A stretch of 64,000 bases of DNA from Hydrolagus colliei (taxonomy: Eukaryota), in contig CM068744.1 of assembly GCA_035084275.1 (NCBI GenBank), positions 50,902,001 through 50,966,000 of the forward strand. Reading direction: 5' to 3'. How positions within the stretch are numbered: the first letter of the stretch is position 1; every line of letters begins with the position of its first letter. The translations under genes were made by a program, and so were the position numbers. The notes beneath the pieces were generated by a model, which made no database searches, was not told the origin of the DNA, and was given only the letters and a program-made list of their open reading frames with translations. Shown here in pieces: positions 14,801-57,364 of the stretch.

Positions 14801-16174
14801 GGTTTTAAAAATTTATGTTAATCCGAATTCTTGGGGGAAGAGGGGCACAATTACTCTCACCTTTAAATGGGAATAGATTTCGTTAATACAATAGGTTCAC
14901 ATTGTTAGTTCCACTTCATTCAATAACATTGCAAAATGTTTCACATTGATAGTTTTCCACAGAAGGGATTACTATGAACCTTTTTCCAATGAAACATCAC
15001 TAAATAACAGTACTTAGAAATATCATTCTTCATATGTTTGACAGTCTTAACTGAAATTCTCGAGGAGTGTTTTAAGAGATATTGCATCTTACACTACTCT
15101 GCTTCCTGTAAACTTAATTAGCACCGTTTTATTTCCTATTGTTGTCATCCTTTACATTAGTGCTGCTTCTTTTAATCAGAATTTCTATTTTAGATGGTAC
15201 TGAAACTGTTTTTCAGCTTGTGTAAAATTCAGGCATTATTTTCTATGATTTAAATTTTACTGCTAATTTGAAACAGTTTAAAATGTTGTCAAGTACTTGT
15301 GCTTCAATGTGTGACAACCCCAAGATAATCTCATCTGGAACATGTCATGAATTCTATATTCCCACTGATTATAAATTGAAATTCTTTTTAGTTCTACTTC
15401 GGGTTTCATGAGTAATAGGAATCGAAAGAGCAAAAGTTGGTTAAAAAGCTGAGAAAATCCATCATGATTGAAACTGCAGCTTCTTTCCATTTGGAAGGAA
15501 CTCATTTTCAATTCCAATCCTTCTGGAATTGGAGACGATTGAGAGATTTAGCCACTGAGGAATCTTCCCGGAACCTCTGTATTCTGTCTGTAAAAGGCCA
15601 TCATCTTTGCAGATATCTTCATACCAAGATTGAGCTTTTAGATGTTTGCAATGAGACAGTCACAGCAGTAGACAGCTTGCGGTTACTGAAGAACGTAGCT
15701 CAAAATATTTCACCCACTGTCATTAATCTATGTTCCTATCCTGGTTAATAACACCAGATTTAGAAGATAAAATGGTACAGAAAGGGAAAGAGTACAAGAA
15801 AAAGCATTGAAGATTCTTGTGTTTTATTCAGTACTGGCATAAGATTATGCAAAGCGTTAATGCTATTTGACAAGTTATTAAAGAGCAAGAAGAGTCCCAA
15901 GCAAACACCTACCATTCATGTTTGTAGAAAGGTGATGGCCTATCATCCTTCAGCTACACTCCCAAATATATCCTAAAGGAATTTGTTCACTGAAGCATCA
16001 GATGTTCAGACTTCTGTCTATCCTCTATCTTTGTCAGATCTCATTCCAGCAATTTGTTTTGATTTTTGTCCTTTTAAAGTTGTTTGCAACTATAAGATGA
16101 GGTATGATTCTTTGAGTCATTGTTAACAGGTGGGTACTTACTCCAGGGGTTTAGGTTGTTGAAACCAGTTTTTA

Positions 16175-16376
16175 AAACAAAAACAGAACTTGCTGGGAAC
16201 ACGCAGCTGGTCAGGCAGCATCTATGGAGAACCCACTTCTGACGAACGGACGTGAACCCGAAACGTCGACTCACTTTCCTTTCTCCATAGATGCTGCCTG
16301 ACCTGCTGAGTGTTCCCAGCAAGTTCTGTTTTTGTTTGAGATTTCCAGCATCTGCAGTATTTTGCATTTTGTTTAC
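16175..16376 (+). mobile_element. Penelope-like (PLE) terminal-repeat-derived hairpin element with hammerhead-like core
   Basis: Inverted arms at 16175-16231 and 16281-16337. The loop contains ctgacga...gaaac-gtcgac-tc. A perfect 10-bp direct repeat ccagttttta flanks it (16165-16174, 16377-16386). Confidence 0.7.
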
Positions 16377-18019: not shown

Positions 18020-20405
18020 GTGCAATATTATGATGTTATCTCCCAAAATGTAGCAAACTAAAAAAGATGATAAGCAATTTCAGGGAGATATAGACAGATT
18101 AGTTGATTGGGCAGAGTCATCAGATTAAACTTAATATAAACAAATGTGGGTTACACATTTCAGGAGGAACAATACAGGAGTGAGTATATGTTTGGTGGTA
18201 ACATTTTAAAAGCAGTGGAAGAGCAGAGGCGCTCCTCCGCACCCAGCTCCATTTGTTAGCCCCGCTCATTTCTGACACCATTAACCTTTCCCTCTCCTCA
18301 GGTACCGTCCCTACCTCCCTTAAAACAGCCACCATCACCCCTATCCTGAAGAAACCCTCCCTTGATGCGTCGCAACCATCAAGTTATCGACCCATCTCCA
18401 ACCTCCCGTTTGTATCCAAGGTCCTTGAAAGAGTGGTTGCCTCCCAGCTCCGCTCTTTCCTTTTAACTAATTCACTCTTTGAACCCCTCCAATCAGGTTT
18501 CCGCCCAATTCATAGCACAGAAACTGCCCTGGTTAAGGTCACAAATGACATCCTAACCGCCTGTGACCAGGGCTCCCTCTGCCTCCTCGTCCTCCTTGAC
18601 CTGTCTGCTGCATTCGACACAGTCGATCACACCATCCTCCTTCAACATCTTTCCTCCCACCTCAACCTTCAAGGCACAGTCCTTGACTGGTTCCATTCTT
18701 ATCCGACCCACCGTTTACACTTTGTTTCTTCCAACGGTTTTTCTTCAAACCCCCGCACAGTTTCCCACGGCGTCCCTCAGGGCTCTGTCCTCGGCCCCCT
18801 CCTTTTCACCCTTTACACGCTCCCTCTGGGCGATGTCATCCGCAAACATGGGGTAAATTTCCACATGTATGCGGACGACACCCAGTTGTACCTTTCTGCC
18901 TCATCCCTCAACCCCCAGACCATCGATGTTCTGACAGCATGTCTGTCCGACATCGAGTCCTGGACGAGGGACAACTTTTTGCAATTGAACGTGAGTAAGA
19001 CCGAGGCCCTCCTGATTGGCTCAAGCCAGCGGCTCCGCACATCGGGCGCTGCCAGCCTCAACATCCAAGGCTGTACTCTCCACCTCACAAAGCCAATCAG
19101 GAACCTCGGCATCATGTTCGATCAAAAACTTTCCTTCCTCCCCCACATCCGTGCCTTGACCGGCACCGCTTATTTCCACCTGCGCAACATTGCCAGGCTC
19201 CGCAACTATCTTACCCCCCGCGCTGCCCAAAACACTCGTGCACGCATACATCACCTCAAGGCTGGACTACGGAAACTCTCTCCTCGTCGGCCTACCCAGT
19301 TCCTCCATTCACAGGCTGCAGGTCATCCAAAACTTTGCAGCCCGTGTATTATCCCGCACCCGCCTCTGCGACCATATAACCCCCACCCTCTCCCGTCTCC
19401 ATTGGCTCCCCATTCTCCGGAGGATCGAGTTCAAGATCCTCGTCCTCACCTACAAGGCCTTACACGGCCTTGCCCCGCCCTATTTAACCAATCTACTTTC
19501 CCCCTACAAGCCCACCCGGACCCTCCGTTCAACAGGACTTGGCCTGCTCCAAGCCCCCGCCCGAACCGCCCCACCATCGGAGGCCGGGCCTTCAGTTTCT
19601 CCGCTCCCACCCTATGGAATGCCATCCCTCAATCCCTCCATCTCGTTTCTTCCCTTTCCTCTTTCAAGGCCGGTTTGAAGACTTTCCTCTTCGACCGTGC
19701 CTTTTGTTCCACCCCAAACTTTTCGACCTCCCCTTCGTGTTTCACCCCTTCCCAAACACTCCACTCTCAGCTCGGGTCACACACCTCCTGTGCAGCGCCT
19801 TGGGACGTCCTCCCGACTTGAAAGGCGCTCTATAAATGTAATTTGTTGTTGTTGTTGTTGTAGTGTATATAATTCTTAAAAATGGGAAGACAGGTCGATA
19901 AAGCTGCCAAGAAAGCAAATGCAATCCTAACTTTTATAAATGGGGAATTAAAATATAAAACTAAAGAAGTAATGTTAAACTTATATAAATCATTATACTG
20001 TAACTAGAACGTTGTGTTCTAGTTAGCCACCCCATTTAAGGAAGGATGTCAACAGCGGGTGCAGAGGAGATTTACTTGGATGATACCAGAGATGGTTTGG
20101 TCTACAGGACGTTAGGAGAAATGTTCTCACATACAGTTATTAGGTACGGAATGCCCTGTCAGGACTGGTGGTTGAGACATAATTCATATTAATTTCAAAA
20201 GGGAACGAGATAGATATTTGAGATGACTCGAAGATGTGAAAAGGACTATATCAAATGCAAGAATTAGTATTATGATAACTAAAACAGATTAAACTACAAG
20301 GTTATGGGGAAAAGAGATGAATGGAGAATTAAATCATTGCTGTTAAAAGACCCAGCATAGAGACAATGGGCCTAATGGTTTTCTGCACTATAAACATCTA
20401 TGGTT
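18020..20405 (+). mobile_element. Old CR1 LINE split by the L2 insertion at 18229-19861
   Basis: cagggagatatagacagattagttgattgggcag (Q.DIDRL..WA) lies before the L2. aatgcaatcctaacttttataaat and cagaggagatttac plus a CR1 3' end lie after it. Confidence 0.7.
18229..19861 (+). mobile_element. L2-clade LINE, 5'-truncated, young; reverse transcriptase domain with two frameshifts
   Basis: [52 protein letters not shown] and HWLPI..RIEFKIL motifs, plus a (TTG)n tail. Confidence 0.95.
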
Positions 20406-20937
20406 GTATGTTTTGAAAGATTATGAAAAATATTTTGAAATGTAATATTTTCATTTTCTCCACGCACTTTGCATGCATTTAAAAATTTTCACGGTCTGAC
20501 TTCACATCAGAGCTCTAATGCATAAGTGGCATTTGCCCACTAAAATACCGTATACAGTCCATTAATTTTATGGTATATTTTGTGAAGCTATGTTGGATTA
20601 CAGTTACAATTATAAAGCTTGTTTTATTTTTGTTACAGACTAGGTTCATAAATGCCCTTGTTTGTGGAGTCCTGTAGCTCAATGGTTAGAGTACTCACTT
20701 TACAAGTGTGAGACCTGTTGTTGTGATATTTCCAACACTGTGTTCAAATCTAGGCAGGGTCGAAACCTTGGGCAAGTTTCCTTTCTTCACATGCCCAATA
20801 ATAATCCCCCACAAAAAAATCTATAATAAATTAGTCACTTCAATCCACGACTGTTTGTGGGACACTGCTGGGCACAATAGGCTACCACTTTTCACCCACA
20901 AAAATACAGTCACTCCACTTTACAGTATACTGTACAA

Positions 20938-21906
20938 TAGGGTCCGGCGATATATCGATATATCGCTAAAACCCGATATAATTTTCATATCGATATGCCG
21001 ATATAGACATTTAAAAAATATCGATATCGAAAAATTCATAGTCCTCAAATACAATATACAGGTATGCAAGGGGTGGGGAAGAGACAGCTGGGGGGGTGGT
21101 GAAGGGGAGAGAGACGGCTGGGGGGAGGGGGAGAGAGACGGCTGGGGGGAGGGGGAGAGAGACGGCTGGGGGGAGGGGGAGAGAGATGGCTGGGGGGAGG
21201 GGGAGAGAGACGGCTGGGGGGAGGGGGAGAGAGACGGCTGGGGGGAGGGGGAGAGAGACGGCTGGGGGGAGGGGGAGAGAGACGGCTGGGGGGAGGGGGA
21301 GAGACGGCTGGGGGGAGGGGGAGAGAGACGGCTGGGGGGAAGGGGAGTGAGAAGGCTCGGGGGAGGGGGAGAGACGGCTGGGGGGAGGGGGAGAGACGGC
21401 TGTGGGGGGGGAGGAGAGGGGGAGAGAGACAGCTGGGGGGGGGTGGAGAGAGACGGCTGGGAGGAGGTGGAGAGAGACGGCTGGGGGGAGGTGGAGAGAG
21501 ACGGCTGGGGGGGTGGTGGGGGAGAGAGATGACGGGGGTGGGGCGTGTGAGAGAGGGACGGCGGGGGGGGGGGGCGGTGGAGAGACGGGGTGGATGTGAT
21601 AATATACAGATAGATGGAGGAGAATGTGAGAGAGGAGAGAGGGAGAGAGACACAGAGACACACAGACAGAAAAACACAGAGATGGAGAGAGTGAGGGACA
21701 CAGAGAGAGAAAGATATTTACCTCCTGAGGAGATAGGCCCCGAATGCGCGCGCACCCGGAACGCGCGCGCACTCCGAACGCGCGCGCACTCCGAATGTGC
21801 GCGCTATGCGCAGTACAAAAAACCCGAAAATATAGATATTTTGGTATATCTCAATATGAGCCCATCGATATATTTAATCGGAAAATTTCCATATCGACAG
21901 ACCCTA
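20938..21906 (+). mobile_element. hAT-type MITE carrying a G-rich minisatellite (copy 1)
   Basis: TIRs tagggtccggcgatat / atatcgacagacccta, subterminal atatcg repeats, and imperfect 8-bp flanks ctgtacaa / ctgtatac. Homologous to 56503-57364. Confidence 0.85.
21075..21530 (+). repeat. 24-bp G-rich minisatellite (gagagagacggctggggggagggg)n
   Basis: Tandem array visible directly; it produces the 8-aa periodic spurious ORFs (GEGERDGW). Confidence 0.95.
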
Positions 21907-23505: not shown

Positions 23506-23606
23506 AGGTACAAACCTGGTCGATGTGATGATATATTGAAGTGGAAACCGCCAAGTCACAATTCTGTTGACTTTCGTCTGAAAATAACAAAAGTAGGGGG
23601 AGAAGG
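23506..23606 (+). CDS. RNGTT: Internal coding exon of mRNA capping enzyme (RNA guanylyltransferase and 5'-phosphatase)
   Basis: cag|AGG...GAAGG|gtaagt, 101 bp, phase 0 start and phase 2 end. It translates [34 protein letters not shown], matching vertebrate RNGTT ([34 protein letters not shown] as recalled) and containing nucleotidyltransferase motif V (KWKP). Confidence 0.96.
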
Positions 23607-27941: not shown

Positions 27942-29510
27942 ATCATAGAATTATATGGCACAAAAGGAGGCCATTTGGCCCATCTGGTCTGTGCCGGCTC
28001 TGTGAACAGAGCAACTCAATCCCACTGCCCAGCTTTCTCCCCATACCCTAACAGACCTGCTCTTCCTAAATAAAGATTTACTTCCCTTTTAAAAGCTGTT
28101 ACGGAATCTGCCTCCACCACCTTTTCAGGCTATGCATTCCAGATTCAAACAATCCACTGAGTGAAAAAAATTCTCCTCAGCTCTCCTCTGCTTCATTTTG
28201 AAACTATTTTAAATCTGTGACCACGAGTCACTGATTCGCCCACCAGTGGAAACAGTCTTTCCCTATTCACCCTGTCGAAACCTCTCATAATCTTATAAAC
28301 CTCTATTAGGTCTCCTCTCAATTTTCTTTGTTCTAGAGAGAATAAGCCTAGTTTATCTAGCCTTTGCCCATAACTGAAGACCCTCAATCCTGGTACCACC
28401 CTGGTAAATCTCCTCTGCACCCTTTCCAATGCCTTAATATCCTTCCTAAAGTGTGATGACCAGAATTGTACACAGTACTCCAGCTGAGGCCTAACCAAAG
28501 TCTTATAGAGGTTAATCAGCACTTCCTGACTTTTGTATTCTATACCCCTATTTATAAAGCCTAGTATCCCATATGCCTTAACAGCCTTGTCTACCTGTCC
28601 TGCCACTTTCAAAGAGTCACTAACACAAATCCCTAGGTCTCTCTGTTCCTTCACACCCTTTAAAATTGTACTATCTAGCCTATATTGCCTCCTCTCATTT
28701 CTTCTCCCAAAGTGTATCATCTCACACTTCTCTGTATTAAACTTCATCTGTCATGTATCTGCCCACTTTACCATTTTATCTATATCCTTTTGCAGATGGC
28801 TTTTATCCTCCTCACTATTTACTCTTCTCTCTAACTTAGATCATCTGCAAATGTGGAAACCGTACTCCCTAAACCCAAATCATTAATGTATATTAAAAAG
28901 AACAGTGGTCCCAAAACTGATCCCTGGGGGAACGCCACTTCACACTTCCCTCCAGTCTGAAAAGCAGTTACTCACCACAACTCTCTGCTTTCTGTCTCGC
29001 AGCCAGTTGTGGATCCACGCTACCACTGTCCCTTTAACACTGTGGGCCTCTATTTTCCTAATAAGCCTCTCATGCGGCACTTTGTCAAATGCCTTTTGAA
29101 AGTTCATGTAAACTACATCAACTGCGCTGCCCTCGTCTACCCATTCTGTTACATCGTTGAAAAATTCTATCAGATTTGTAAGGCAAGATTTGCCTTTAAC
29201 AAATCCATGCTGGCTGTCCTTTATCAGCCTATATTTTTCCAAGTGAAGATCTATCTTGTCCCTGATTATAGATTATAGAAGTTTGCCCACTACTGATGTT
29301 AGACTGACTGGCCTGTAGTTCCCAGGTTTGTCCTTCTGCCCCTTTTTGTACAGGGGAGTAACATTATCAACCCTCCAGTCCTCTGGTACCACCCGTGTCC
29401 AAGGAAGATTGAAAGATTGTGGCCAGAGTCTCTGCTATTTGCTCCCATACTTCCGTTAGTAACCTAGGATGCATCCCATCCGGACCGGGCAACTTATCTA
29501 CCTTGAGTAG
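27942..29510 (-). mobile_element. CR1 LINE, 5'-truncated, RT region with frameshifts
   Basis: SQHGFVKGKSCLTNL, FQKAFDKVPH, FADD, LYKTLVRPQLEYCVQFW and RGDLIEVYKI motifs. Candidate TSD ataatgtatta (27929-27939) / ataatgtgtta (29511-29521). Confidence 0.95.
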
Positions 29511-31214
29511 ATAATGTGTTAATTCATCTCAATGTTTAATGTATTAGAATTTTTTTTAAACTTAAATTGAAGTTGTTAAATATAGGCAAAGAAACTCCAT
29601 TCACTCAGTAATGATAATAATGCTTGCATTTGTATAGCAATTTTCACATCAGGAGGGCATCCCAGCACACTTCACATGGATTTGCTGTGAAATGGAGTGA
29701 CTGTTCAAGGCAGAACCCTTGAAAAATTCCCTGATCTGAGTTGCCAGTGATTGCCCTGCACAATGGAGGACAGAAACTTCATGCAGGTAATGCCTCAGGA
29801 GCAAATCTAAACCAAGGGAGCATACCAACTCAAGTCACTTTTATACACCTACCAGAGACTTGGGAACTTGTCAACTTTCTGTTCTCATGGAATGGTGTGT
29901 ATATAACCTGGGGGAAACCTAAAGGGCACCTTTTTAGGGGGAAAAACACTAATTAAAACAACAGTAGAATACTGAGTTGCCCGGTCCTTTTGTTCTCAAC
30001 CTACAGTACTCCTTGAATAAGGATTTTGATCATTCCTTAATGAGTTTTGAATGAGAAGGACACCTAAAGCCAGTACCATGAGTATCAGATTAGTAGCACT
30101 GTACATCCTATTGAGTACATTAAGTAATATTGTCATTTAAAATAGTTACATTGGAATGTTGTGCTCAACTCAACAAATATTAATAAACAAATCGATGAAT
30201 AAAAATCCTGTATATATCCTTGATCAGAGCTGAGTTTAATTTCCACAGTCGCCTTCTTGTGCTTGGATTGATGAGTTTAGCTCCAACGTGACCACTTTGT
30301 AATGAGCCAGAGGATGGATTTTCATAACCTTCAATTCAAAGATAACAAAAGTCAAGAAAACTAATTAGTTCACCATCAAAACTGTACCAGACACCAGTGA
30401 TGTGATTCATTATTGTAGAACACTTGCACATAATGTTCATTTTGGATTTCAGTTGCTTGCTAAATGCACCTATTGCTTGAATTCTGCTGTGAATATCTAT
30501 TAAAATATGGGCTGTTTTAATGAATAAGTTAGGCAAGCATCTTTTCATTTGCTGCAAAAGGACAATGCGTTGAAAATAATTGATATTGTTACTTATACTG
30601 TGACGGTTCTCACCCCTGGATGTATGTGCAAATTTTATTAACACTTTTGTACTAAGTGGCCTCTGCTTGACTGCTAACCCTGTCGGTGTGAATCCCTATT
30701 TCAAAAGGGACTCAATCAATTCAGAGTCACACACAGACAGGTATTGTCAGTTAACCCCAATGCGCAGTAACTGGCATGTCTAATCAGAGTCTGCTTACAC
30801 TAGTAGACCTCCAATGTTGACAACTACCCTCCGAAGTTCTTACTCCTTTTCTTGTATAGAATACTACAGAGGCTCAAGAATATGTTTGGTAGAAACAACA
30901 GGACTTTTTCTAAAACCTAGCAACCCTAGGCTATGTTGTAGATACGGAACACAACAATGGAAGATGTACAATAATTGGATCAAGTATAGCAATCACACAT
31001 AACTATAACAACTGCCAGCACATTACTACATTAGGAAATAAATATTAAACCAACCTGACTGTACAATAGTTCTCAGTGCTAGGTGACGACCATCAAGTTG
31101 ACCATGAGTAGTGTCAAGCATTGCTTTATTTAGGCGTATGGCTCAACCCACCATATGAAGCAGGTTTTTTCAGTGGGTGGGGCGGGTTCCCACGTTAGCA
31201 CTCATGTATTATTT

Positions 31215-32285
31215 ATTTAACTCTGACCCAGTTACCTGTGGGGTACCCCAGGGATCCATCCTTGGCCCCCGCCTCTTCCTCATCTACATGCTCCCTCTTG
31301 GGGATGTCATCCTCACACATGGGGCACACTTCCACATGTATGCGGATGACATCCAACTCTATTTCTCCACTTCACTTTGCAACCCCCAGTCCCCTGATGT
31401 TCTGTCAGCCTGTCTGGCAGACATCAGGAGCTGGATGAGCGCAAATTTCTTGCAGCTGAATGTTGACAAGACGGAGGCCATACTCTCTGGCTGTCGTCAA
31501 CATCTCCATTTACATGGCTCTCACCTCCTCCACCTTCTCGGTCTCCCCCTGAAACTCTATGAACCTGTGCGCAACCTTGGCGTCAGGTTTGATTCCCCAA
31601 CTGTCCTTCCTCCCCCACATCCGGTCCCTCACCAGCACCGCCTTCTTCCACCTCCGACGGATCGCCCGTCTCCGGCAATACCTCACTCCAAAAGCCTCTG
31701 AAACCCTGGTCCACGCCTTCATCACCTCATGGCTGGACTATTCAAATGCCCTCCTCACCAGTCTCCCCTCCACCACAATCCATAAAATCCAACTCATCCA
31801 AAACTCTGCCGCCCGCATACTCACCCGCACCAAACTTCGCTCCCCCATTACCCCAGTCCTTGCCAGACTTCACTGGCTCCCTATCCCCGAGAGGATCGAC
31901 TTCAAGATCCTCACCCTTGTTTTCAAATACCTCCTCTGCACTCCCCCTACCTCTCTGACCTCCTCTCTCCTCAAACCAGCTCCCGTTGCCTTCACTCCAT
32001 TGGGTCTAGCTCCTGCATGTCCTCCGAATCCTCCACTGCACCCTCGCCGGCCGGGCCTTCAGCCACTATGCCCCAAGGCTCTGGAATTCCCTTCCTCACT
32101 ACCTTCGTCTTGCCCCGTCTTTTCTCAGATTCAAGTCCCAGTTAAAGACCTTTCTCTTCGACCACGCCTTTGGTCACCATTCTATCCTTGCCCCTGGCTC
32201 GGTCCCGGGATCTGTTACTGTGAAGAGCTCTAAGACGCCATCCGGCGTGGAGGGCGCTATATAAATTGAAGTTGTTGTTGTTGTT
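31215..32285 (+). mobile_element. L2 LINE (second subfamily), 5'-truncated
   Basis: GVPQGSILGP, MYADDIQLY and HWLPIPERIDFKIL motifs, plus a (TTG)n tail. Confidence 0.92.
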
Positions 32286-40158: not shown

Positions 40159-41438
40159 CAACAACAACAACTTAAACTTATAAACTTAAACTTATAAAGC
40201 GCCTTTCACGTCGGGAGGACGTCCAAAGGCGCTGCACAGGAGGCGTGTGACCCGAGCTGGGAGGGGAGTGTTCGAGAAGGGGTGAAACACGTAGGGAAGG
40301 TCGAAAAATTCAGGGGGGGGGAACAAAAGGCACGGTCGAAGAGGAAAGTCTTCAAACCGGCCTTGAAAGAGGAAAGGGAAGAAACAAGGCGGAGGGATTG
40401 GGGGATGGAATTCCACAGGGTGGGAGTGGAGAAGCTGAAAGCCCGGCCTCCGATGGTGGGGCGGTTCGGGCGGGGGGCTTGGAGCAGGCCAAGACCTGCT
40501 GAACAGAGGGTCCGGGTGGGCTTGTAGGGGGAAAGTAAATCGGTTAAGTAGGGCGGGGCAAGGCCGTGTAAGGCCTTGAAGGTGAGGACGAGGATCTTGA
40601 ACTTGATCCTCTGGAGGATGGGGAGCCAGTGGAGACGGGCGAGGGTGGGGGTTATATGGTCGCGGAGGCGGGTGCGGGATAGTACACGGGCTGCAGAGTT
40701 TTGGATGACCTGCAGCCTGTGAATGGAGGAACTGGGGAGGCCGACGAGGAGAGAGTTTCCATAGTCCAGCCGTGAGGTGATGTATGCGTGCACGAGTGTT
40801 TCGGCAGCGTGGGGGGTGAGGAAGTTGTGGAGCCTGGCAATGTTGCGCAGGTGGAAATAAGCGGTGCCGGTCAAGGCACGGATGTGGGGGAGGAAGGAGA
40901 GTTTACGGTCGAACGTGAAGCCGAGGTTCCTGACTGGCTTTGTGGGGTGGAGAGTACAGCCTTGGATGTTGAGGCTGGCAGCGCCCTATGTGCGGAGGCG
41001 CTGGCTTGAGCCAATCAGGAGGGCCTCGGTCTTACTCACGTTCAATTGGAGGAAGTTGTCCCTCGTCCAGGACTCAATGTCGGACAGACATGCTGTCAGA
41101 ACATCGATGGTCTGGGGGTTGAGGGATGAGGCAGAAAGGTACAGCTGGGTGTCGTCCGCATACATGTGGAAATTTACCCCATGTTTGCAGATGACATCGC
41201 CCAGTGGAGCGTGTAAATGGTGAAAAGGAGGGGGCCGAGGACGGAGCCCTGGGGGACGCCGTGAGAAACAGTGCGGCGGTTTGAGGAGAAACCGTTGGAA
41301 GATACGAAATGTAGGCGGTGGGTCAGGTAGGAATGGAACCAGTCAAGGACTGTGCCTTGAAGCTGGAGGTGGGAGGAAAGACGTTGGAGGAGGATGGTGT
41401 GATCGACTGTGTCGAACGCAGCAGACAGGTCAAGGAGT
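40159..41438 (-). mobile_element. L2 LINE, young, same subfamily as 18229-19861, antisense
   Basis: [13 protein letters not shown] through KAGLKTFLFDRAF, with nucleotide sequence almost matching the + copy and a (CAA)n tail at 40159-40171. Confidence 0.95.
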
Positions 41439-42959
41439 ATCAAGTATTCTGCAGCCTGTGTCCTCTCCCTCACCGGGCTCTGCGACCTTATCACATTCAT
41501 CCTCAACACTATCATTAAGTTGGTATTTGCTACTAATTAATACGTTATTTAACCCAATCTGATATGATAGGAAAGTTGTACATTGAATCCTAGAAATATA
41601 ACTGTAGAACTCATTCATCATACGATCTTGGGAAAGGATTCCAAGGATGATTGGCGGAGCAAGTCAGTACTATCTATCATCAAAACAATCAATCTCAATT
41701 CCCAAATGAAACTGGAATAGCAATAACTGTCCTTAAATTAACATAGCGTAGCAGTAAGACTCAATTTAAAGCTGATAGTAGTTCAGAAGTAACAGTAAAC
41801 AGTAAACTTTACACCATAGTAGCAAACTAAATTTGACAGTTTAAGTAATGCCATTATCACATTGATACAAATAATCAGTGGTTATTTGCAACATTTGAAT
41901 CCTGTACTCGAAAATAACCAGATACCTATTGAAGAGTATAAGAAAGTACGGAACAAGAAAAGGTGACTTAGCCCATGTTCCCTAATTTAGCTTCACGTTT
42001 TCATCTCTATCTGCTGCAGGTAAGTTCCTGGGCAAAGAGTACATTCAAGAAAAAAAAAATTCCACTCAAAGATGTACTCGTCAAGTTGATGTACATGTAA
42101 ACGTGGTGTTGGGACTATTTATGTGTCAAACACCTGGCTAACCTATAAAAGTTATATTGTACTTTGAAACTATCTGACACCCAATGATAACCATTCAGAA
42201 AATTAAAAATATTTATTCTTCGATTCCTAGCCAAATACTTTTCCTTTTTATAAAGAGTTAATGCAGCGTTAATTAGCAGACTGTTACTCATACTCCTAAC
42301 CTCTGGTCCTCATAGAAGCATTTTAATTTAAAATCTATGGTCTTTCTCTAATGGGCTAAGACAAAAAAAACCTGCTTCCATCTAATCCTATTTGCCTCTT
42401 GTATCCTGTTCAATTTTTTTTCCCAATGAAAGCTATTCAGCCCTATAAGCATTTAATAATAATACTACTACTAATAATAATCTTTGCAATTGATGTAGCA
42501 CGAGGCATAAGCCCCAGATTCAACCATATTCTTCTTTGAAATGAATGAAATTTTGTTTTGCAAAATTTGGAAACATTTTAAAAAGATGAAATATAAAAGA
42601 AAGTAGTTAACTAAACATTTAGAAAGTAAATGGAAAGTAGAATTCACAGGAAATGTCCAAATATGGTAAATGAGAACAAAGGTTAAAAAGAGCCATTTTT
42701 CTTTTAGAAAGCTAAAAGCACATGAAAAGAGCAAGATAGACTAATGTAAAATTAAGCAGAAAGAAATATTACATGACAAAGGAGACTGAGAAAAGGAAAT
42801 AAAGAAATTAAGTTAAGGCAACAAAGAAAATAAAGAAAAGGAAAATAATTTATTTTTCTGGTTTCTTGGTTTATGTGAAATTGCCCTGCTTCTACACTCG
42901 ATGATCTCAATCCTTTTCAGCAGAAGGTTTCTTAACAAAAGGTTTCATATTAAATTATA

Positions 42960-56195: not shown

Positions 56196-56502
56196 GGATA
56201 AGAGAATTTCAAATATTATAATCTTAACAACTCTGTTTTTCAATGTTAAGTGTTCTGTACAACATGCTTGATCCAGTATTGCATAAAAGCACGATGAGAA
56301 AGATAACAGATAAAGAAAAAGCACTGATTACTTTTATTACTGTTTTCCAATTCAGCAAATTACATTATATAGAAAAGGTTAGCCATTTTACCTGAATGCT
56401 TGAAAAAGCTGAAAAGCATAGATAGCCATAAAATCGATTCTTTCAGTGCACATAATGTACAATTGCTTTTTCTAAGTAGGTAATGCTAGGACTGGTAGGA
56501 AC

Positions 56503-57364
56503 TAGGGAACGGCGATATGGGAATTTCCCGATATGGATATATCGGTTGGCTCATATCGACATATACCGATCTATTGATATTTTGGGGGTTTTCGTACTGC
56601 GCATGCACGCGCGCACCCGGAATGCGGGGCCTATCTTCTCAGGAGGTAAATATCTTTCTCTCTCTGTGTCTCTCACTCTCTCCATCTCTGTGTTTTTCTG
56701 TCTGTGTGTCTCTCTCCTTCTCTCCTCTCTCACATCCCCCCCATCTCTATCTATCTGTATATTATCACATCCACCCTGGTCGTCTCTTTCTCCCCCCCCC
56801 CCCCCCCCCCACCCCTCTCTCGCACCCCCCACCCTGGTCGTCTCTCTCCCCCTCCCCCCAGCCGTCTCTCTCCCCCTCCCCCCAGCCGTCTCTCTCCCCC
56901 TCAACCCCCCCCCCCCAGCCGTCTCTCTCCCCCTCACCCCCCCCCCCCAGCCGTCTCTCTCCCCCTCACCCACCCCCCAGCAGTCTGTCTCCCCCTCACC
57001 CCCCCCCCCAGCCGTCTCTCTCCCCCTCACCCCCCCACCCCAGCAGTCTCTCTCCCCCTCTCCTCCCCCCAGCCGTCTCTCTCCCCCCCCACCCCCAGTC
57101 ATCTCTCTCACCCCCAGCCCTTGCATACCTGTATATTGTATTCGAGGACTGTGAATACAATATGGCGGCTTTGCACCTAGGTCTGTGCATTGTGTAAAGA
57201 GATGAGCATTCTGGGTCTTGTAGTTCAGTGTGCTCGCATCCCGATTTTTTACCTCGATATATTGTTTTTTCGATATATCGATATTTTTAAAATGTCAATA
57301 TCGGCATATCGATGCGAAAATTATATCGGGTTTTAACGAGATATCGATATATCGCCGTTCCCTA
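56503..57364 (-). mobile_element. hAT-type MITE with C/G-rich minisatellite (copy 2)
   Basis: Perfect 16-bp TIR tagggaacggcgatat / atatcgccgttcccta and perfect 8-bp TSD gtaggaac (56495-56502, 57365-57372). Confidence 0.95.

What the first reader, a model, noticed from the sequence alone, without database searches (positions are those of the whole stretch)
16175..16376. Hammerhead-ribozyme-like core inside a ~57-bp hairpin, on the RNGTT pre-mRNA strand
Seen: near-perfect inverted arms (16175-16231 / 16281-16337). The loop contains CUGACGA (16239-16245), a short stem II region, GAAAC (16260-16264), the palindrome GUCGAC and a UC site (16271-16272). The ~200-bp unit is flanked by a perfect 10-bp duplication ccagttttta, so it inserted as a unit. 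Known: Penelope-like elements carry minimal type I hammerheads with a palindromic stem III that act as dimers, and they form inverted terminal-repeat structures. Inference: this is a small non-autonomous ribozyme-bearing retroelement. In sense orientation it could cleave the intron, or yield a dsRNA or miRNA-like hairpin. Caveat: stem II and stem I pairing look degenerate here, so this copy may be inactive.
Basis: partly seen in the sequence, partly recalled or inferred. Interest (0 to 1): 0.7.

Follow-up and report, generated by a model that had tools for sequence, protein, structure and literature searches.

The report
Head-to-head Penelope stub, broken hammerhead
This hairpin in an intron of the mRNA-capping gene RNGTT is two short end pieces of a very common Penelope-type jumping gene joined head to head, a layout already described for that class, and its small self-cutting RNA motif is damaged and predicted to be inactive, so it is ordinary.

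Summary
The hairpin, the hammerhead core and the 10-bp duplication are real. The unit lies on the sense strand of an RNGTT intron. It is not a separate hairpin retroelement. It is the 3' end of an abundant Penelope-like element: longer copies carry RT, a CxxxxCxxC linker and a GIY-YIG endonuclease directly upstream. A 21-mer from the arm has 7,656 exact genomic matches. Of 86 position-sampled insertions, 36 are head-to-head with varying junctions, and 35 of these have the tail on one arm only, the published PLE layout. This copy keeps 2 of 5 stem II pairs and has lost G10.1-C11.1, so it is predicted dead. One family-level point stands out: copy 5' ends pile up about tenfold at the start of stem I (359) and not at the cut site (25; controls 30-52). 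The scan noted this kind of stub, and this pile-up, before on other DNA. Ordinary; interest low.

The parts
16165..16174 (.). Left copy of 10-bp target-site duplication
   Evidence: a TSD scoring >=8 was found at 45 of 97 sampled arms
16175..16231 (-). Inverted, 5'-truncated pLTR arm (element positions about +43..+99, C3=+1); ends at the short 3' end, no tail, no hammerhead
16232..16376 (+). Direct pLTR arm from about -6 (the family's common 5' boundary zone) to the long 3' end
   Evidence: 84-86% identical to the 3' ends of RT+EN copies L079, L081, L088
16235..16271 (+). Minimal type I hammerhead, degenerate: stem I 16235-38/16268-71 (3 of 4 pairs), core 16239-45, bulged A 16246, stem II 16247-51/16255-59 (2 of 5 pairs, G10.1-C11.1 lost), GAA 16260-62, palindromic helix III 16263-66, predicted cut after 16267
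   Evidence: layout from PMC4209133
16281..16337 (+). Part of the direct arm that pairs with the inverted arm (57-bp stem in the pre-mRNA, predicted)
16338..16376 (+). One-sided PLE 'tail' (about 39 bp) between the family's two 3' end points
   Evidence: 3' ends bimodal, about +94..+105 and +125..+135; PMC8557442, PMC11167929
16377..16386 (.). Right copy of the target-site duplication
23506..23606 (+). Host context: next RNGTT exon downstream (start approximate)

Best explanation
The unit is a TSD-flanked, head-to-head pair of short 3'-end (pLTR) pieces of an abundant RT- and GIY-YIG-coding Penelope-like element, likely built during its own insertion, and its hammerhead is predicted to be dead. 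Shown: family membership, abundance, the two fixed 3' ends, the one-sided tail, variable junctions, and the substitutions that break stems I and II. Inferred mechanism: the element's endonuclease nicked both target strands 10 bp apart. [quoted passage not shown] The two cDNAs were then joined at their truncated ends. The copy has since decayed. In RNGTT pre-mRNA it would form a 57-bp dsRNA stem but would not self-cleave.
For: L079, L081 and L088 carry RT motifs, a CQRRRCNTC linker, GIY-YIG motifs, a 3' UTR, the hammerhead and the tail in one run. L079 is bounded by its own 16-bp TSD. Pfam RVT_1 E 1e-4, below the curated cut-off; ESM Atlas GIY-YIG clusters score 0.96. There are 2,215 exact hammerhead-pattern matches against 1 control and 7,656 matches of the arm 21-mer against 0. 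36 of 86 sampled insertions are inverted pairs; 35 of 36 have one long and one short arm, while the other 50 split 26 long / 24 short. Either arm can reach the 5' boundary: long only 11, short only 8, both 6, neither 10. Arms of one insertion share rare alleles more often than arms of different insertions, 16 of 189 against 102 of 6,347. Cleavage and extension of both strands and two internal RT start sites were shown in vitro for an anole PLE (PMC11167929). None of 40 sampled hammerheads has as few stem II pairs as this copy.
Against: No full-length element with a 5' pLTR joined to the ORF was found among the loci in hand, so the template RNA is inferred. All coding copies seen are broken, and the RT hit is below Pfam's cut-off. 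Published work explains the same structures by self-priming on an antisense template (PMC3846280) or by endonuclease resolution of the intermediate (PMC8557442); my data favour dual priming but do not exclude these. Shared rare alleles could also come from later gene conversion. The sample comes from the first 8 Mb of one contig and was chosen by an exact 21-mer, which favours younger copies.
Confidence: 0.9

Rival explanations
1. A separately amplified non-autonomous hairpin retroelement (SINE- or retrozyme-like) whose master is the whole 200-bp fold-back.
For: The unit has its own TSD, and short copies far outnumber long ones: only 20 of 122 arm ends lie upstream of -7. Non-LTR retrozymes derive from PLE pLTRs (bioRxiv 10.64898/2026.07.22.740005). 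A short pLTR-only transcript as template is not excluded.
Against: Junctions differ among the 36 inverted insertions and among the 30 best genomic matches. Retrozymes are defined as tandem repeats with two hammerheads; this unit has one hammerhead and no tandem partner.
Confidence: 0.06
2. Same identity, different route: the inverted arm arose by fold-back or self-priming of one cDNA (or on an antisense RNA), and the tail by endonuclease resolution.
For: Proposed in PMC3846280 and PMC8557442. It explains the strict one-sided tail and the rare allele shared by both arms here (16323, 0 of 50 sampled copies).
Against: Simple fold-back predicts that the long arm always reaches the template end, but in 8 of 35 pairs only the short arm does. 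Non-inverted copies end at the short site as often as at the long one, 24 against 26.
Confidence: 0.25
3. The copy has been co-opted to regulate RNGTT: self-cleavage, A-to-I editing, or a small RNA from the stem.
For: Sense orientation in an intron, very stable predicted stem, and the core nucleotides are intact.
Against: Five of the copy's seven private or near-private changes in the direct arm fall in the 37-nt hammerhead, and stem II is destroyed. Such hairpins are common in this genome. Nothing marks this one as selected.
Confidence: 0.03

Closest known systems
Insertions of canonical EN+ Penelope-like elements: pLTR, adjacent inverted 5'-truncated copy, one-sided 30-40-bp tail, TSD (PMC8557442 passages and Fig. 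2 legend; A. vaga Pen2a, PMC3846280 passages)
   Same: Head-to-head arms, a tail of about 39 bp at one end, a 10-bp TSD, and a hammerhead in the pLTR.
   Different: This copy has no ORF at all; it is only two pLTR stubs. Such ORF-less pairs are about 4 in 10 sampled insertions here.
Neptune/Nematis-type PLEs (CX2-5CxxC linker plus CCHH GIY-YIG; PMC8557442 passages)
   Same: [quoted passage not shown]
   Different: Clade placement rests on motifs, not on a tree. Neptune is preferred because the bioRxiv paper lists Neptune and Poseidon as the vertebrate groups. Repbase and Dfam were not available.
Minimal hammerheads (min-HHR) of metazoan PLEs (PMC4209133, parts 1-2 of 4 read)
   Same: Type I, extra base between 9 and 10.1, G10.1-C11.1, palindromic 15.2-16.2, 4-bp stem I in the family.
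   Different: The family triplet is mostly GUU (28 of 30). This copy has lost G10.1-C11.1 and three of five stem II pairs.
Anolis Poseidon PAc (PMC11167929, parts 1-2 of 4 read)
   Same: Two internal RT start sites that define the tail; both target strands cut and extended; uncut RNA used as template.
   Different: PAc is a different clade, and its ORF starts inside the hammerhead. The paper found no difference in start site between strands, whereas single insertions here almost always pair one long with one short arm.
Animal non-LTR retrozymes (bioRxiv 10.64898/2026.07.22.740005, part 1 of 5 and passages)
   Same: Non-coding, PLE-pLTR-derived, type I hammerhead.
   Different: Retrozymes are head-to-tail tandem repeats with at least two hammerheads; this is a head-to-head pair with one.

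Membership tests
EN+ Penelope-like element (family) | RT followed by C-terminal GIY-YIG endonuclease in one ORF | tested here: met
   In related copies L079, L081, L088; frames broken; absent from this truncated copy
EN+ Penelope-like element (family) | Hammerhead in the terminal repeat | tested here: met
   About 350 nt after the EN C-terminal motif; 2,215 pattern matches against 1 control
EN+ Penelope-like element (family) | Inverted 5'-truncated copy and one-sided 30-40-bp tail | tested here: met
   35 of 36 inverted insertions; this copy
EN+ Penelope-like element (family) | Partial tandem pLTR-ORF-pLTR in full-length copies | tested here: inconclusive
   No 5' pLTR joined to an ORF among 145 tail-bearing arms in hand; the search was not exhaustive
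Neptune/Nematis clade | CX2-5CxxC linker before GIY-YIG | tested here: met
   CQRRRCNTC in L010, L079, L081
Neptune/Nematis clade | RT phylogeny with reference elements | not testable with these tools
   No Repbase or Dfam references available
Minimal type I hammerhead (family majority) | CUGANGA, bulged base, G10.1-C11.1, GAAA, palindromic helix III, NUH, stem I | tested here: met
   13 of 40 sampled copies keep all features; triplet GUU 28, GUC 1, GUG 1 of 30
Minimal type I hammerhead (this copy) | Intact stem II with G10.1-C11.1 | tested here: not met
   C-C, G-C, G-C, A-A, C-A; +6.5 kcal/mol against -6.6 and -8.2 for two intact copies
Minimal type I hammerhead | Covariation in stems across families | tested here: inconclusive
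   Two subfamilies differ only by a one-sided change at the closing pair (U-G / C-G) and in the loop. No second family with other stem II pairs was found: 20 matches against 32 control.
Minimal type I hammerhead | Self-cleavage | not testable with these tools
   Needs an in vitro assay
Non-LTR retrozyme | Head-to-tail tandem units with at least two hammerheads | tested here: not met
   One hammerhead, one insertion in the window
Non-autonomous hairpin SINE/MITE family | Copies share the same ends and the same internal junction | tested here: not met
   Junctions vary

The most novel reading that the evidence does not exclude
The thousands of stubs are a fossil record of the PLE reaction in vivo. 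Each head-to-head stub is made by two RT events on opposite target strands, one from each internal start site, on an uncut leader RNA that begins at the first bases of hammerhead stem I (likely the transcription start). Ribozyme-cut RNA is not used as a template. The hammerhead would then sit at the very 5' end of the transcript and act as an off-switch or passenger rather than as the step that makes the template.
Probability: 0.4. Interest if true: 0.5.

Novelty: new member of a known kind. Interest (0 to 1): 0.15.

Why it matters
The copy itself matters little: it is a dead transposon scar in an intron, and the layout is published. The family statistics bear on two open points: the role of the hammerhead in EN+ PLEs, called unclear in PMC8557442, and how inverted pLTRs form. 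They give genomic support to the in vitro result that uncut RNA is the template (PMC11167929), and they name a testable transcript start. Very many sense and antisense intronic hairpins could also be a large dsRNA source in this animal, but that was not tested.

Tried and rejected
Rfam scan: 7 weak matches, none a hammerhead, none at gathering score. Pfam on three short PLE fragments: 0 of 3; on five more: only RVT_1 below cut-off and weak incidental hits. PDB sequence search with the RT frame: two unrelated hits at E about 0.03, dismissed. Search for a second hammerhead family with other stem II pairs: no excess over control. Hypothesis that copy ends pile up at the ribozyme cut site: rejected (5 of 122 ends at +29..+32, P=0.43; genome-wide 25 against controls 30, 35, 52). 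A post-hoc subset (short arms only, about 5 of 19 at +30..+33, read by hand) was not borne out by the genome-wide counts. Hypothesis that the 5' boundary is a splice acceptor joined to a shared upstream exon: no shared upstream sequence in 30 copies, and a TSD abuts the boundary directly in 4. Search for a full-length element with a 5' pLTR: none in the loci in hand. Sequencing runs: no RNA holder listed. The one run laid (contigs, possibly the assembly's own source) showed no joint skipping the insertion, which proves nothing about an empty allele. Lunse et al. on dimeric PLE hammerheads was not held and is known here only from a review's passages (PMC6765202). No paper on this family turned up in searches; Repbase and Dfam could not be searched, and supplements of the cited papers were not read and may list it. 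The look-up by sequence in earlier findings returned only an unrelated bacterial note.

Full report
Observation. The stem is far beyond chance (z -16.2), and so is the 10-bp duplication (0.4% of 20,000 random trials). A capping-enzyme exon lies at about 23506-23606 on +. Pfam PF01331 matches lie upstream on the same strand, the nearest about 4.6 kb before the window start. The unit is therefore in an RNGTT intron in sense orientation. Rfam has no hammerhead match here. The host is a vertebrate with a 1.0-Gb assembly; earlier scan notes call it a cartilaginous fish, which I did not test.

Family. The unit has 1,870 first-look candidates in its genome. The hammerhead core pattern has 2,215 exact matches against 1 control, and a 21-mer from the arm has 7,656 against 0. 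Walking upstream from longer copies gave the C-terminus of an endonuclease ORF. A search with the neighbouring RT-thumb frame gave copies in which RT motifs, a C-x4-C-x2-C linker, GIY-YIG motifs, a 3' UTR, the hammerhead and the tail are contiguous. Of 15 stretches fetched, 8 had the hammerhead end downstream of the ORF, and L079, L081 and L088 match the finding's direct part at 84-86%. L079 is one 2.7-kb insertion with a 16-bp TSD. RT is supported by Pfam RVT_1 at E 1e-4, below its cut-off. The endonuclease is supported by ESM Atlas clusters at 0.96, where 12-22% of members carry PF01541. The linker marks Neptune/Nematis-type elements (PMC8557442 passages). Two subfamilies differ by about 25-30% in the ORF and in loop II and its closing pair.

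Ribozyme. Family copies fit the minimal type I hammerhead of PMC4209133 (parts 1-2 of 4 read): 4-bp stem I, core, bulged A, 5-bp stem II opening with G10.1-C11.1, GAAA, a 4-nt palindrome as helix III, and H17. The triplet is GUU in 28 of 30 copies. In window terms the cut falls after 16267, not 16272. Against 53 sampled copies, this one has changes at 16236, 16247, 16250, 16255 and 16267 inside the ribozyme and at 16323 and 16338 outside it. It keeps 3 of 4 stem I pairs and 2 of 5 stem II pairs; none of 40 sampled copies is as low in stem II. The ribozyme helices evaluate at +6.5 kcal/mol against -6.6 and -8.2 for two intact copies, with pair probabilities of 0.001 or less in 350 nt of pre-mRNA. 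A cross-family covariation test was not possible.

Structure of insertions. I examined 97 of the first 100 listed matches of the 21-mer, all from the first 8 Mb of contig C1; the last 3 were not fetched. 3' ends fall in two groups, about +94..+105 and +125..+135 (C3=+1; the references end at +135). 52 of 97 arms have an inverted partner beside them, and 45 of 97 show a TSD scoring 8 or more. After merging arms there are 86 insertions (L149/L150, probably one pair, stayed apart). 36 are inverted pairs whose partner arm is at least 25 bp and reaches +85; 35 of them have one long and one short arm (P 5e-10 against an even draw), while the other 50 split 26 long and 24 short. Junctions vary throughout. 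The finding is a typical member: long arm from -6, short arm from about +44. This is the published PLE layout (PMC8557442; PMC3846280; PMC8969392; passages only). The hairpin is thus a by-product of each insertion, not a master element.

5' ends. Of 122 arm ends, 46 lie at -7..+2, 54 are spread over +3..+52, 20 lie further upstream, and 5 lie at +29..+32, around the cut site (P=0.43). Genome-wide counts of patterns that force two mismatches just before a given position gave 359 for -2, 30 for +9, 35 for +26, 25 for the cut site +30 and 52 for +33 (7 of these could be one-base deletions). At least 3 of the 25 at +30 still have ribozyme sequence upstream. These counts are not normalised for pattern length or mutability, and microhomology can shift ends by a few bases. 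Among 30 of the 359, 12 abut an inverted arm, 1 is a longer copy, none shares an upstream exon, and in 4 a TSD touches the boundary directly. So the template has a defined 5' end at the start of stem I and was uncut. A transcription start is the simplest reading: the site resembles an initiator (consensus recalled, not from a call), and pLTR promoters are reported (PMC2377424 and PMC6765202 passages). An RT stop at a structure or bound protein is not excluded.

Mechanism. PMC11167929 (parts 1-2 of 4 read) showed for an anole PLE that both target strands are cut and extended, that RT starts at two internal sites bounding the tail, and that ribozyme cleavage is not needed. Applied here (inference), one nick was extended from the distal site and one from the proximal site, and the cDNAs were joined. 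Either arm can reach the 5' boundary (long only 11, short only 8, both 6, neither 10 of 35), which suits two cDNAs better than a simple fold-back. Arms of one insertion differ at 260 of 2,536 sites against 11,274 of 79,054 between insertions, and share rare alleles at 16 of 189 against 102 of 6,347 (36 pairs including the window's). That points to one source per insertion or to later gene conversion. Against this reading: no full-length template was found, and self-priming models are in print.

Novelty. The layout and the ribozyme class are published. I found no paper on this family in searches, but repeat databases were not available. The scan has filed such stubs many times in this genome and in others, and three notes on this genome already mention the start at the ribozyme's edge. 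I had recorded these patterns before reading the notes. The notes concern the same family, so they are not independent support. One note on another genome suggests in vivo cutting; my counts show no trace of that here. Verdict: a real but ordinary, decayed Penelope-like insertion, interest 0.15, with a modest family-level lead.

Noticed in passing
window 16236 and 16338: Two private changes in this sense-strand copy remove or weaken AG acceptor-like sites (the AG before the core; CAG to GAG after a pyrimidine run). This could be chance or selection against cryptic splicing in RNGTT.
   Followed up: no
window 16232-16280: Five changes fall in the 49-nt loop against about four in the other 150 nt of the unit. 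A mild excess; not tested further.
   Followed up: partly
window 18202-19860 (+) and 40159-41536 (-), also 31159-32233: Truncated LINE copies with RT-like frames; the first two are 92% identical over 1.28 kb.
   Followed up: no
window 20900-21900 and 56500-57360: Two related low-complexity repeat insertions in opposite orientation, with purine-rich tandem units and a shared flank (74-90% identity).
   Followed up: no
window 28193-28750: CR1-like 3' ORF fragment (label recalled from the translation).
   Followed up: no
L010:1650-2400: A LINE fragment lies between the endonuclease ORF and the hammerhead end of a PLE copy, in opposite orientation.
   Followed up: no
L092-L120 (G000 C1), base before the core: A minority of copies have C in place of U just before the core, turning the first stem I pair from U-G to C-G (5 of 46), a one-sided change that keeps pairing.
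   Followed up: no
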